The position numbers and the translations under genes were made by a program. Of a stretch of 64,000 bases of DNA, positions 40,443-58,400 are shown piece by piece. The stretch spans positions 2,480,001 through 2,544,000 of the forward strand of contig NC_043024.1 of assembly GCF_006345805.1 (NCBI RefSeq), read 5' to 3'. The stretch comes from Octopus sinensis (Eukaryota). Below the pieces are notes generated by a model. It saw only the letters and a program-made list of their open reading frames with translations. It did no database searches and was not told the DNA's origin. Position 1 is the stretch's first letter, and each line of letters begins with the position of its first letter.

Positions 40443-43400
40443 ATCTGCGGCAAATTCTTCACTCAAAACGATGTCTTAACTAAGCACAAACGTATCCATA
40501 CAGGAGAGAAACCTTACCATTGTGATATCTGCGGTAAATCTTTCTCGCAAATAAATAACTTAACTACTCACAAACGCATTCATACAGATGATAATCAATA
40601 TCATTGTGATATCTGTGGTAAATCCTTCTCTCAGAATCATCACTTGACTGAACACAAATATATTCATACAGGAGATAAGCCGTATCACTGTGACACCGGT
40701 GGTAAATCTTTCTCTCAGATAAATAACTTAAACACTCACAAGCGTATTCATACAGGTGAGAAGCCCTATCACTGTGATACCTGTGGTAAATCTTTCTCTC
40801 AAATAAATAACTTAAACACTCACAAGCGTATTCATACAGGTGAGAAGCCCTATCACTGTGACACCTGTGGTAAATCTTTCTCTCAGATAAATAACCTAAA
40901 CACTCACAAGCGTATACATACAGGTGAGAAGCCCTATCACTGTGACACCTGTGGTAAATCTTTCTCTCAGATAAATAACTTAAACACTCACAAGCGTATT
41001 CATACAGGTGAGAAGCCCTATCACTGTGACACCTGTGGTAAATCTTTCTCTCAGATAAATAACTTAAACACTCACAAGCGTATTCATACAGGTGAGAAGC
41101 CCTATCACTGTGACACCTGTGGTAAATCTTTCTCTCAGATAACTAACTTAAACACTCACAAGCGTATTCATACAGGTGAGAAGCCCTATCACTGTGACAC
41201 CTGTGGTAAATCTTTCTCTCAGATAAATAACCTAAACACTCACAAGCGTATTCATACAGGTGAGAAGCCCTATCACTGTGACACCTGTGGTAAATCTTTC
41301 TCTCAAATAAATAACTTAAACACTCACAAGCGTATTCATACAGGTGAGAAGCCCTATCACTGTGACACCTGTGGTAAATCATTCTCTCAGATAAATAACT
41401 TAAACACTCACAAGCGTATTCATACAGGTGAGAAGCCCTATCACTGTGACACCTGTGGTAAATCTTTCTCTCAAATAAATAACTTAAACACTCACAAGCG
41501 TATTCATACAGGTGAGAAGCCCTATCACTGTGACACCTGTGGTAAATCTTTCTCTCAAATAAATAACTTAAACACTCACAGGCGTATTCATACAGGTGAG
41601 AAGCCCTATCACTGTGACACCTGTGGTAAATCTTTCTCTCAAATAAATAACTTAAACACTCACAGGCGTATTCATACAGGTGAGAAGCCCTATCACTGTG
41701 ACACCTGTGGTAAATCTTTCTCTCAAATAAATAACTTAAACACTCACAGGCATATTCATACAGGTGAGAAGCCCTATCACTGTGACACCTGTGGTAAATC
41801 TTTCTCTCAAATAAATAACTTAAACACTCACAGGCGTATTCATACAGGTGAGAAGACCAATCACTGTGACACCTGTGGTAAATCTTTCTCTCAAATAAAT
41901 AACTTAAACACTCACAAGCGTATTCATACAGGTGAGAAGCCCTATCACTGTGACACCTGTGGTAAATCTTTCTCTCAAATAAATAACTTAAACACTCACA
42001 AGCGTAGTCATACAGGTGAGAAGCCCTATCACTGTGACACCTGTGGTAAATCTTTCTCTCAAATAAATAACTTAAACACTCACAGGCGTATTCATACAGG
42101 TGAGAAGCCCTATCACTGTGACACCTGTGGTAAATCTTTCTCTCAAAAAAATAACTTAAACACTCACAAGCGTATTCATACAGGTGAGAAGCCCTATCAC
42201 TGTGACACCTGTGGTAAATCTTTCTCTCAAATAAATAACTTAAACACTCACAAGCGTATTCATACAGGTGAGAAGCCCTATCACTGTGACACCTGTGGTA
42301 AATCTTTCTCTCAAATAAATAACTTAAACGCTCACAGGCGTATTCATACAGGTGAGAAGCCCTATCACTGTGACACCTGTGGTAAATCTTTCTCTCAAAT
42401 AAATAACTTAAACACTCACAGGCGTATTCATACAGGTGAGAAGCCCTATCACTGTGACACCTGTGGTAAATCTTTCTCTCAAATAAATAACTTAAACACT
42501 CACAGGCGTATTCATACAGGTGAGAAGCCCTATCACTGTGACACCTGTGGTAAATCTTTCTCTCAAATAAATAACTTAAACACTCACAGGCATATTCATA
42601 CAGGTGAGAAGCCCTATCACTGTGACACCTGTGGTAAATCTTTCTCTCAAATAAATAACTTAAACACTCACAGGCGTATTCATACAGGTGAGAAGACCTA
42701 TCACTGTGACACCTGTGGTAAATCTTTCTCTCAAATAAATAACTTAAACACTCACAAGCGTATTCATACAGGTGAGAAGCCCTATCACTGTGACACCTGT
42801 GGTAAATCTTTCTCTCAAATAAATAACTTAAACACTCACAGGCGTATTCATACAGGTGAGAAGCCCTATCACTGTGACACCTGTGGTAAATCTTTCTCTC
42901 AAATAAATAACTTAAACACTCACAGGCGTATTCATACAGGTGAGAAGCCCTATCACTGTGACACCTGTGGTAAATCTTTCTCTCAAATAAATAACTTAAA
43001 CACTCACAGGCATATTCATACAGGTGAGAAGCCCTATCACTGTGACACCTGTGGTAAATCTTTCTCTCAAATAAATAACTTAAACACTCACAGGCGTATT
43101 CATACAGGTGAGAAGACCTATCACTGTGACACCTGTGGTAAATCTTTCTCTCAAATAAATAACTTAAACACTCACAAGCGTATTCATACAGGTGAGAAGC
43201 CCTATCACTGTGACACCTGTGGTAAATCTTTCTCTCAAATAAATAACTTAAACACTCACAAGCGTATCATACAGGTGAGAAGCCCTATCACTGTGACACC
43301 TGTGGTAAATCTTTCTCTCAAATAAATAACTTAAACACTCACAGGCGTATTCATACAGGTGAGAAGCCCTATCACTGTGACACCTGTGGTAAATCTTTCT

Positions 43401-55400: not shown

Positions 55401-58400
55401 TCTCTCAAATAAATAACTTAAACACTCACAAGCGTATTCATACAGGTGAGAAGCCCTATCACTGTGACACCTGTGGTAAATCTTTCTCTCAAATAAATAA
55501 CTTAAACACTCACAGGCGTATTCATACAGGTGAGAAGCCCTATCACTGTGACACCTGTGGTAAATCTTTCTCTCAAATAAATAACTTAAACACTCACAGG
55601 CGTATTCATACAGGTGAGAAGCCCTATCACTGTGACACCTGTGGTAAATCTTTCTCTCAAATAAATAACTTAAACACTCACAGCGTATTCATACAGGTGA
55701 GAAGCCCTATCACTGTGACACCTGTGGTAAATCTTTCTCTCAAATAAATAACTTAAACACTCACAGCGTATTCATACAGGTGAGAAGCCCTATCACTGTG
55801 ACACCTGTGGTAAATCTTTCTCTCAAATAAATAACTTAAACACTCACAGGCATATTCATACAGGTGAGAAGCCCTATCACTGTGACACCTGTGGTAAATC
55901 TTTCTCTCAAATAAATAACTTAAACACTCACAGGCGTATTCATACAGGTGAGAAGCCCTATCACTGTGACACCTGTGGTAAATCTTTCTCTCAAATAAAT
56001 AACTTAAACACTCACAAGCGTATTCATACAGGTGAGAAGCCCTATCACTGTGACACCTGTGGTAAATCTTCTCTCAGATAAATAACTTAAACACTCACAA
56101 GCGTATTCATACAGGTGAGAAGCCCTATCACTGTGACACCTGTGGTAAATCTTTCTCTCAGATAAATAACTTAAACACTCACAAGCGTATTCATACAGGT
56201 GAGAAGCCCTATCACTGTGATACCTGTGGTAAATCTTTCTCTCAAATAAATAACTTAAACACTCACAAGCGTATTCATACAGGTGAGAAGCCCTATCACT
56301 GTGACACCTGTGGTAAATCATTCTCTCAGATAAATAACTTAAACACTCACAAGCGTATTCATACAGGTGAGAAGCCCTATCACTGTGATACCTGTGGTAA
56401 ATCTTTCTCTCAAATAAATAACTTAAACACTCACAAGCGTATTCATACAGGTGAGAAGCCCTATCACTGTGACACCTGTGGTAAATCATTCTCTCAGATA
56501 AATAACTTAAACACTCACAAGCGTATTCATACAGGTGAGAAGCCCTATCACTGTGACACCTGTGGTAAATCTTTCTCTCAGATAAATAACTTAAACACTC
56601 ACAAGCGTATTCATACAGGTGAGAAGCCCTATCACTGTGATACCTGTGGTAAATCTTTCTCTCAAATAAATAACTTAAACACTCACAAGCGTATTCATAC
56701 AGGTGAGAAGCCCTATCACTGTGACACCTGTGGTAAATCTTTCTCTCAAATAAATAACTTAAACACTCACAAGCGTATTCATACAGGTGAGAAGCCCTAT
56801 CACTGTGACACCTGTGGTAAATCTTTCTCTCAGATAAATAACTTAAACACTCACAAGCGTATTCATACAGGTGAGAAGCCCTATCACTGTGACACCTGTG
56901 GTAAATCTTTCTCTCAATAAATAACTTAAACACTCACAAGCGTATTCATACAGGTGAGAAGCCCTATCACTGTGACACCTGTGGTAAATCTTTCTCTCAA
57001 ATAAATAACTTAAACACTCACAAGCGTATTCATACAGGTGAGAAGCCCTATCACTGTGACACCTGTGGTAAATCTTTCTCTCAGATAAATAACTTAAACA
57101 CTCACAAGCGTATTCATACAGGTGAGAAGCCCTATCACTGTGACACCTGTGGTAAATCTTTCTCTCAGATAAATAACTTAAACACTCACAAGCGTATTCA
57201 TACAGGTGAGAAGCCCTATCACTGTGACACCTGTGGTAAATCTTTCTCTCAAATAAATAACTTAAACACTCACAAGCGTATTCATACAGGTGAGAAGCCC
57301 TATCACTGTGACACCTGTGGTAAATCATTCTCTCAGATAAATAACTTAAACACTCACAAGCGTATTCATACAGGTGAGAAGCCCTATCACTGTGACACCT
57401 GTGGTAAATCTTTCTCTCAAATAAATAACTTAAACACTCACAAGCGTATTCATACAGGTGAGAAGCCCTATCACTGTGACACCTGTGGTAAATCATTTCT
57501 CTCAGATAAATAACTTAAACACTCACAAGCGTATTCATACAGGTGAGAAGCCCTATCACTGTGACACCTGTGGTAAATCTTTCTCTCAAATAAATAACTT
57601 AAACACTCACAAGCGTATTCATACAGGTGAGAAGCCCTATCACTGTGACACCTGTGGTAAATCTTTCTCTCAAATAAATAACTTAAACACTCACAGCGTA
57701 TTCATACAGGTGAGAAGCCCTATCACTGTGACACCTGTGGTAAATCTTTCTCTCAAATAAATAACTTAAACACTCACAAGCGTATTCATACAGGTGAGAA
57801 GCCCTATCACTGTGACACCTGTGGTAAATCTTTCTCTCAAATAAATAACTTAAACACTCACAGGCGTATTCATACAGGTGAGAAGCCCTATCACTGTGAC
57901 ACCTGTGGTAAATCTTTCTCTCAGATAAATAACTTAAACACTCACAAGCGTATTCATACAGGTGAGAAGCCCTATCACTGTGACACCTGTGGTAAATCTT
58001 TCTCTCAAATAAATAACTTAAACACTCACAAGCGTATTCATACAGGTGAGAAGCCCTATCACTGTGACACCTGTGGTAAATCATTCTCTCAGATAAATAA
58101 CTTAAACACTCACAAGCGTATTCATACAGGTGAGAAGCCCTATCACTGTGACACCTGTGGTAAATCTTTCTCTCAGATAAATAACTTAAACACTCACAAG
58201 CGTATTCATACAGGTGAGAAGCCCTATCACTGTGATACCTGTGGTAAATCTTTCTCTCAAATAAATAACTTAAACACTCACAAGCGTATTCATACAGGTG
58301 AGAAGCCCTATCACTGTGACACCTGTGGTAAATCTTTCTCTCAGATAAATAACTTAAACACTCACAAGCGTATTCATACAGGTGAGAAGCCCTATCACTG

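What the first reader, a model, noticed from the sequence alone, without database searches (positions are those of the whole stretch)
43260..57700. Array frameshifts sit almost exactly on inter-unit polymorphic bases, the signature of consensus artefacts
Seen: ~17 indels, nearly all explained as loss or doubling of the base that varies between units. Examples: caca[a/g]gcg to cacagcg (46197, 52495, 53415, 55683, 55766, 57695); tc[a/t]ttct to tcttct (50952, 56070) or tcatttct (57497); gtga[c/t]acc to gtgaacc (51188); ca[a/g]ataa to caataa (56917); aag[c/a]cct to aagaccct (52936); cgta[t/g]tcat to cgtatcat (43267); caaa[t/a]aaat to six As (43409, 44585, 53230). One 2-bp deletion near 52831 fits less exactly. 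Inference: split votes from mis-mapped reads during polishing, so the true frame may be uninterrupted across 19 kb.
Basis: partly seen in the sequence, partly recalled or inferred. Interest (0 to 1): 0.8.

Follow-up and report, generated by a model that had tools for sequence, protein, structure and literature searches.

The report
Assembly slips in giant zinc-finger repeat
The 17 frameshifts in this 19-kb zinc-finger repeat are likely sequencing-consensus errors, made where repeat copies differ by one base, while the repeat itself is one finger copied about 226 times in a gene fragment that has no start codon and so likely makes no protein.

Summary
Observation confirmed. Of 225 core 84-bp units, 17 are off-length (14x83, 2x85, 1x82). 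All 14 single deletions fit a polymorphic column (null 0.18 each, P 4e-11), and both insertions are the two alleles side by side. New here: for 14 of 17 indel units, the best-matching position elsewhere in the array carries the minor allele at exactly that column (2.6 expected). A toy noisy-read consensus reproduces the pattern (119x83, 22x85, 12x82) only when votes are mixed and alignments use indels only. Contigs of three public samples hold both intact alleles of the commonest site; none listed carries the deletion, but contigs cannot prove absence. The indels are therefore likely artefacts (0.85). Without them the frame would run 6,441 codons, but it has no in-frame ATG and starts after a stop inside a dispersed repeat. 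Two paralogous loci have the same broken 5' end and only one copy of the amplified finger. Best reading: a real runaway single-finger expansion in a likely non-coding relic. No earlier scan note on this signature was found.

The parts
40428..59739 (+). Stop-to-stop C2H2 zinc-finger frame; 6,441 codons if the net -14 bases of indels are errors; no in-frame ATG before the first indel
40782..59667 (+). 225 core 84-bp units of one finger; helix positions -1 to +6 read QINNLNT in 200 of 208 intact units; 24 intact unit types arranged in repeated blocks
   Evidence: Pfam PF00096 and PF13465 on 40428-43322
40441..40781 (+). Degenerate first fingers: the first lacks its first Cys; the unit at 40698 has Cys replaced by Gly
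40281..40440 (.). Dispersed repeat (10 other matches in the window) abutting the first finger; holds the in-frame TAA at 40425-40427; same junction in paralogous loci L001 and L002
59668..59739 (+). Last, different finger and the stop codon, shared with both paralogous loci
43266..43268 (+). 1-bp deletion at column 50; best homologous unit carries T50G
43404..43409 (+). Six-A deletion at column 23; best homologous unit carries T23A
44579..44584 (+). Six-A deletion at column 23; second-best homologue carries T23A (scored as a miss)
46197..46198 (+). Column 44 deletion, the form laid against public contigs; best homologue has the major allele (miss)
50953..50954 (+). Column 12 deletion; best homologue carries T12A
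51188..51189 (+). Column 81 deletion; best homologue carries C81T (weak context score)
52494..52495 (+). Column 44 deletion; homologues carry A44G and C67A
52831..52832 (+). 2-bp deletion of columns 46-47; homologues carry G47A
52935..52936 (+). Insertion: both alleles of column 67; homologues carry C67A
53225..53230 (+). Six-A deletion at column 23; homologues carry T23A
53415..53416 (+). Column 44 deletion; homologues carry A44G
55682..55766 (+). Two adjacent units, each with the column 44 deletion; homologues carry A44G
56069..56070 (+). Column 12 deletion; homologues carry T12A
56916..56917 (+). Column 21 deletion; homologues carry A21G
57495..57496 (+). Insertion: both alleles of column 12; best homologue carries T12A
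57695..57696 (+). Column 44 deletion; best homologue has the major allele (miss), the next two carry A44G

Best explanation
The 17 indels sit on the bases that differ between repeat units and are likely errors of the assembly's consensus step, and the array around them is one zinc finger amplified about 226 times inside a 5'-truncated fragment without a start codon that likely makes no protein. Inferred mechanism: at a unit that truly carries a minor allele, part of the noisy long reads come from other units (shifted register, or the other haplotype) and carry the major allele. An aligner that writes a mismatch as a deletion plus an insertion offers four paths: allele 1, allele 2, neither, both. 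With split votes, 'neither' (83 bp) or, less often, 'both' (85 bp) wins. Near the array ends, unique flanks likely hold reads in register, so the ends stay clean. The amplification likely arose by unequal exchange and block duplication from a single ancestral finger. Shown: the coincidence with polymorphic columns, the block homology, the missing ATG, the single-copy finger in paralogues. Inferred: the software step, the source of mixed reads, the lack of a protein.
For: 14 of 14 deletions and 2 of 2 insertions fit polymorphic columns. For 14 of 17 indel units the best context homologue has the minor allele at that column, against 2.57 expected (0 of 1,000,000 draws). Intact minor-allele carriers share their allele with the best homologue in 145 of 190 cases, a similar rate, while major-allele positions show a minor homologue in 51 of 1474. 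Simulation with indel-only alignment: 0 of 206 indel units with no misplaced reads, 3 at 30%, 34 at 50% (30 on the unit's own minor column). Ten seeds at 42%: 155 of 2059 units, lengths 119x83, 22x85, 12x82, 2x81, against 14:2:1 observed; 6 of 9 observed indel forms reproduced letter for letter. No indel in the first 29 or last 23 core units (P 0.0097, post hoc). Contigs of three samples hold intact forms around column 44; in X6 the depth per assembled copy is an even 27-36 for five pieces with 62-210 copies, and an X1 contig reads through the site with the intact G allele. Paralogous loci L001 and L002 share both flanks, the 5' junction and the last finger, with one copy of the amplified finger. 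No in-frame ATG. Read misplacement is known to degrade tandem repeats (PMC7484160, passages; bioRxiv 10.1101/2021.07.02.450803, passages; PMC7545148, passage on mixing of repeat copies).
Against: No raw reads were available, and I do not know whether any run is the assembled individual. 3 of 17 indel units miss the homologue test. 3 of 9 observed forms were not reproduced, and only 69 of 155 simulated indel units equal an observed unit. Units 43385 and 53206 lie in homologous blocks and share the same six-A deletion, as a real inherited indel would. The simulator is my own toy, written from recalled algorithm design, with the true sequence as backbone, and the 42% setting was chosen to give about the observed rate. 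The assembly's real pipeline is unknown to me. Against 'no protein': none of the 19 substitution alleles in the core makes a stop or hits a zinc ligand (P 0.034; 0.14 once the Cys-to-Gly unit at 40698 is counted), and 6 of 19 are synonymous (P 0.15).
Confidence: 0.85

Rival explanations
1. The indels are real mutations, made when repair of mismatched heteroduplex between unequal units drops or doubles the mismatched base.
For: It predicts the same link to minor-allele units. Two homologous blocks share one six-A deletion. A relic with no start codon would tolerate frameshifts.
Against: It does not explain the clean ends. Blocks of 13-18 units are duplicated, yet their indels are mostly not shared between block copies. 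A known class of software behaviour reproduces the length spectrum. I know of no repair pathway with this output (recall; not searched).
Confidence: 0.07
2. The indels are ordinary unpolished long-read errors, mostly homopolymer slips, that fall on polymorphic columns by chance.
For: 13 of the 14 single deletions can be placed in a run of two or more like bases, and three shorten a seven-A run.
Against: Homopolymer-weighted nulls still give P at most 9e-6. Invariant runs (columns 7-9, 33-35, 58-59, 64-65) have no indel. The simulation gave 0 of 206 indel units without mixed reads. The 14 of 17 minor-allele homologues are unexplained.
Confidence: 0.04
3. The indels are errors, and the array is the last exon of an expressed gene for a protein of about 6,400 residues. 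This agrees with the best explanation on the indels and differs only on function; the confidence is for the protein.
For: The frame is open between indels, with no stop or ligand change among 19 core alleles. Three of the four commonest alleles are synonymous and the fourth is Lys to Arg. AG sites with 13-14 pyrimidines in the preceding 20 bases exist at 40634 and 40718.
Against: No ATG; an in-frame stop sits 13 bases before the finger sequence begins. The N-terminal leader seen in the neighbouring genes is missing. The same truncation is in both paralogous loci, and L001 is frameshifted. Selection tests are not significant once unit 40698 is counted. No protein above 64% identity was listed in three searches, which were crowded and capped at 5,000 residues.
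Confidence: 0.1
4. The array's length and block order are themselves partly misassembled, with some repeated blocks falsely duplicated. This is compatible with the best explanation.
For: The same read misplacement would cause it. Blocks 20-37, 74-90 and 133-154 are near-identical. In X6, depth per assembled copy is 27-36, while two contigs that may be single-copy have depth 46-48; a weak hint, since contig depth is no copy number.
Against: Allele proportions in X6 and X5 follow the assembled counts. Depths of thousands in X6 need well over a hundred copies if 46 is single-copy depth.
Confidence: 0.3

Closest known systems
Repeat degradation by misplaced long reads in consensus and polishing (T2T X chromosome, PMC7484160, passages read; T2T polishing, bioRxiv 10.1101/2021.07.02.450803, passages read; HiCanu, PMC7545148, passages read)
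   Same: Ambiguous read placement in tandem repeats lowers consensus quality, mixes repeat copies and can create false frameshifts.
   Different: The passages I saw describe over-correction and homopolymer errors, not loss or doubling of the very base that differs between units. Four searches did not bring up a paper stating that signature; subscription papers and software documentation were not searched.
PRDM9 coding minisatellite (PMC3890296, passages read)
   Same: Tandem, near-identical C2H2 units turning over like a minisatellite.
   Different: Mouse Prdm9 has 7-17 repeats, with selection reported at DNA-recognition residues. Here there are about 226 units, 200 of 208 are identical across positions -1 to +6, no other domain was seen in the first ORF, and there is no start codon.
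Cephalopod C2H2 zinc-finger gene expansions (PMC12513265, passages read; PMC10547256, passages read)
   Same: Clustered, recently duplicated tandem-finger genes; the three neighbours in the window have 11-22 varied fingers. An Octopus zinc-finger protein is the second hit (61% identity), weak support for the taxon.
   Different: Neighbours have diverse fingers (69-81% matches between units), and two have an ATG-bearing leader. This locus has one finger repeated at 97% and no leader.

Membership tests
Split-vote consensus artefact | Indels confined to columns where repeat copies differ | tested here: met
   14 of 14 deletions, 2 of 2 insertions; the 2-bp deletion includes such a column
Split-vote consensus artefact | The affected unit truly carries the minority allele | tested here: met
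   14 of 17 by block homology, 2.57 expected
Split-vote consensus artefact | Pattern arises from mixed reads in a consensus model | tested here: met
   toy model, indel-only alignment only; none with substitution-aware alignment
Split-vote consensus artefact | Indel k-mers absent from accurate reads of the same individual | tested here: inconclusive
   only contigs available, one indel form laid exactly, source individual unknown
C2H2 zinc-finger tandem array | C-x2-C...H-x3-H fingers with TGEKP-type linkers at 84-bp period | tested here: met
   PF00096 497 bits, PF13465 990 bits on 40428-43322; period 84
Protein-coding ZNF gene | In-frame start codon in the array's own exon | tested here: not met
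   no in-frame ATG from 40428 to the first indel; stop at 40425-40427
Protein-coding ZNF gene | Upstream coding exon spliced to the array | not testable with these tools
   no raw RNA reads were offered
Protein-coding ZNF gene | Purifying selection on the fingers | tested here: inconclusive
   P 0.034 to 0.14 for no stop or ligand change; P 0.15 for synonymous excess
PRDM9-type coding minisatellite | Near-identical 84-bp units | tested here: met
   97% matches; 24 types
PRDM9-type coding minisatellite | Variation concentrated at DNA-contact residues | tested here: not met
   3 of 208 units differ at positions -1, 2, 3 or 6; 5 more at position 1 (position numbering from own knowledge)
PRDM9-type coding minisatellite | PR/SET and KRAB domains upstream | tested here: inconclusive
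   none among the 25 of 31 families shown for 40428-43322 and none for 40002-40256; other upstream exons were not scanned

The most novel reading that the evidence does not exclude
The frame is truly open for about 6,440 codons and is spliced to an upstream exon, giving a protein of about 226 near-identical fingers, far longer than any tandem-finger relative listed in my searches. With Q at -1, N at 3 and T at 6 in almost every finger, it would read a periodic A-rich triplet (recognition code recalled, not tested) and could coat microsatellite tracts as a polymer-like scaffold. It arose recently from a single finger that is still single-copy in two sister loci.
Probability: 0.1. Interest if true: 0.75.

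Novelty: new variant of a known kind. Interest (0 to 1): 0.33.

Why it matters
Practically, it gives a sequence-only test for false frameshifts in long-read assemblies of tandem-domain genes: an indel on a column that varies between units, in a unit whose block homologues carry the minor allele, should be distrusted. Pseudogene calls and finger counts in such arrays need k-mer checks. Biologically, the locus shows a single zinc finger going from one copy (two sister loci) to over two hundred, which shows how unstable these cassettes can be. It would be remarkable only if translated, and the missing start codon makes that unlikely.

Tried and rejected
Run search with the indel-rich stretch 52780-53460: 23 runs listed, all contigs, best share 0.39 of 26 sampled words, none at half. 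I had noted beforehand 0.53 (distinct words) or 0.83 (by position) if the indels are errors and 1.0 if real. No RNA holder listed; this says nothing on expression.

One intact unit laid at 90% likeness on X1, X5, X6, X9: no indel rows, but only A21G of the common substitutions was listed, so the positive control largely failed; no weight given. X9 (RNA is only a guess) has an 80-base piece with one difference at depth 22. A 200-copy array would show up from DNA carry-over and no silent stretch could be laid, so this is not taken as expression.

The column 44 deletion laid exactly on X1, X5, X6, X3: of 61 laid records 24 are shown, and none crosses the joint. Left pieces stop at 46197-46198, right pieces start at 46197, and depth is flat over 46171-46194. 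Six real copies would give about 190 in X6, 60-120 in X1 and 14 in X5. Unexplained depth is at most about 12 in X1 and 0 in X5; in X6 the unlisted depth fits intact-allele records by analogy with X1 and X5 (my inference), leaving about 4. Records of depth 2-3 are kept in these contigs. Even so, contigs show presence, not absence: X1 was read to 76%, a filter drops records, and X3 laid nothing. This is a failure to refute, not proof.

A five-copy 6.4-kb tandem duplication elsewhere in G000 as a control for the same signature: too few copies and variants, uninformative. The diverged arrays in the window as a control: one has its own multi-base deletions and stops, so not clean.

Three protein searches for an intact orthologue: only generic zinc-finger proteins, at most 64% identity; crowded and limited to 5,000 residues. 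Pfam found nothing in 40002-40256.

Papers: PMC5873921 and PMC5632298 (passages) gave no statement on indels at mixed sites. PMC4795812 is not held, so I have no published finger-count range for octopus genes. A search for a zinc-finger-derived 84-bp satellite found 0 papers with all five terms; one search listed mainly PRDM9 and satellite papers (listing only). No supplements were read.
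Full report
What is there. Tandem Repeats Finder reports an array at 40485-59735 with period 84, 229 copies and 97% matches. It encodes C2H2 fingers on the + strand (Pfam PF00096 and PF13465). Cut at a fixed anchor, the core (40782-59667) has 225 units: 208 of 84 bp in 24 types with 18 polymorphic columns, and 17 off-length units (14x83, 2x85, 1x82; net -14). 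The window lies on contig C28 of G000. The organism is probably an octopus, on weak grounds: an Octopus protein is the second hit, and unchecked scan notes on this genome say the same.

Is the coincidence real? Yes. All 14 single deletions equal an observed unit type with a polymorphic column removed. Random deletions do this with p=0.18 (columns with at least 3 minor copies; P=4e-11) or 0.31 (all 18 columns; P=9e-8). Weighting towards homopolymers still leaves P at most 9e-6. Both insertions are the two alleles side by side (null about 0.1 each). The 82-bp unit lacks columns 46-47, of which 47 is polymorphic. Six deletions fall on column 44, three on 23, two on 12, and one each on 21, 50 and 81.

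A sharper test. The units form repeated blocks, for example units 20-37, 74-90 and 133-154. For each indel unit I took the best-matching position elsewhere from flanking units alone. In 14 of 17 cases the unit there carries the minor allele at the very column of the indel (2.57 expected; 0 of a million draws), including alleles as rare as 1-3% (T50G, T23A, C67A). For calibration, intact minor-allele carriers share their allele with the best homologue in 145 of 190 cases, and major-allele positions show a minor homologue in 51 of 1474. The indels therefore mark units where a minor allele met a majority of the other allele. The three misses are the units at 44560, 46155 and 57653. The first 29 and last 23 core units have no indel (P=0.0097, post hoc).

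Mechanism. I simulated 24 noisy reads per unit (7% insertions, 4% deletions, 1% substitutions), a fraction drawn from other units, and called a path-scoring consensus of my own, written from recalled design of long-read consensus tools. With alignments that allow substitutions there were no indels at any mixing level; minor alleles were only overwritten (22 of 206 units at 50%). With indel-only alignments there were 0 indel units at no mixing, 3 at 30%, 34 at 50% (30 on the unit's own minor column) and 62 at 70%. Ten seeds at 42% mixing, a value chosen to match the observed rate, gave 155 of 2059 units with lengths 119x83, 22x85, 12x82 and 2x81, close to the observed 14:2:1. Six of 9 observed forms were reproduced exactly; the forms at 51109, 52787 and 57484 were not. 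The model also overwrites some minor alleles, so the assembled substitution pattern may be partly homogenised: the unit at 52452 lacks the C67A of its homologues. Whether the mixed reads are shifted in register or come from the second haplotype I cannot tell. That misplaced reads damage repeats is established (PMC7484160; bioRxiv 10.1101/2021.07.02.450803; PMC7545148; passages only). I found no paper stating this loss-or-doubling signature in four searches.

Reads. Only contigs of public runs were offered. Laying the commonest deletion exactly showed intact forms in three samples. In X6 the depth per assembled copy is 27-36 over five pieces, in X5 2.1-2.5 over three, and in X1 10-20 over four, so the array and roughly its allele mix exist outside the assembly. 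No listed piece crosses the deletion joint. Contigs cannot prove absence and the source individual is unknown, so I count this as a failed refutation only (details under Tried and rejected).

Is it a gene? Without the indels the frame would run 6,441 codons from 40428 to the stop at 59737-59739. It has no in-frame ATG before the first indel, and the core units add no Met. It begins just after a TAA inside a dispersed repeat (40281-40440, 10 other matches in the window) that abuts a finger lacking its first Cys. Two of the neighbouring zinc-finger genes have a leader with Met; this locus does not. Two paralogous loci on the same contig, L001 and L002, share the upstream region (91-94% over 1.8 kb), the downstream region (97-98%), the repeat junction and the last finger. 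Each has one copy of the finger that is amplified here: L002 has a 197-codon frame without a start, and L001 is frameshifted. The truncation therefore predates the duplication, and the amplification followed it. Selection tests are inconclusive. Contact residues are nearly invariant (200 of 208 units identical over -1 to +6), unlike PRDM9, whose mouse arrays have 7-17 repeats with selection at recognition residues (PMC3890296, passages). Three protein searches found no close or intact orthologue, which is weak evidence.

Verdict. The hope of a 19-kb intact gene is undercut by the missing start, and I give a translated giant protein 0.1. The frameshifts are a known kind of error with a neat signature. 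The lasting biology is a recent 1-to-226 amplification of one finger in a likely dead fragment. Interest 0.33.

Noticed in passing
L001 (G000:C28:2130001-2140000) 4990-5420; L002 (G000:C28:2437001-2447000) 5290-5900, minus strand: Short sister copies of this locus with the same 5' truncation. Their first fingers differ in number and order from the window's copy, which suggests cassette shuffling between paralogues.
   Followed up: yes
window 20036-22291 and 32767-34939, minus strand: Two paralogous genes with 21-22 varied fingers. The first has a stop at 20705 and multi-base deletions behind it; the second has one in-frame stop at 33332. Their upstream regions match at 92%.
   Followed up: partly
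window 40782-59667: Every unit has a splice-donor-like AG|GTGAG site in the linker, and the A21G allele (63 units) creates an acceptor-like pyrimidine run ending in AG. A transcript could be spliced within the array (sequence inspection; acceptor contexts).
   Followed up: no
G000:C30:10157400-10187000 (L003-L005): At least five head-to-tail copies of a 6.4-kb zinc-finger-bearing unit at 99.4-99.8% identity; a very recent duplication or an assembly duplication.
   Followed up: partly
window 39057-40138: A 1.1-kb element with three other near-full copies in the window at 95-96%. Its reading frames look like a decayed DNA-transposon transposase to me (recalled), but Pfam found nothing in 40002-40256.
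   Followed up: partly
window 11378-13720 and 25103-26296, minus strand: Broken reverse-transcriptase frames. The two at 11378-13720 match RVT_1, one above and one below the cut-off, with a weak PHD match; the frame at 25103 resembles the one at 12458.
   Followed up: partly
window 36433-36790 and 37276-37631; 61233-61935: An inverted pair of 358 bases at 96.6% identity, and a self-inverted stretch made by two opposite copies of the dispersed repeat.
   Followed up: no
window 37675-39043: A segment duplicated at 13603-14940 and 26218-27604 (95%) and partly in L001 and L002, with ETS-like and CRE-like words near 38825-38850 (motif names recalled). A candidate promoter or first exon for these genes.
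   Followed up: no
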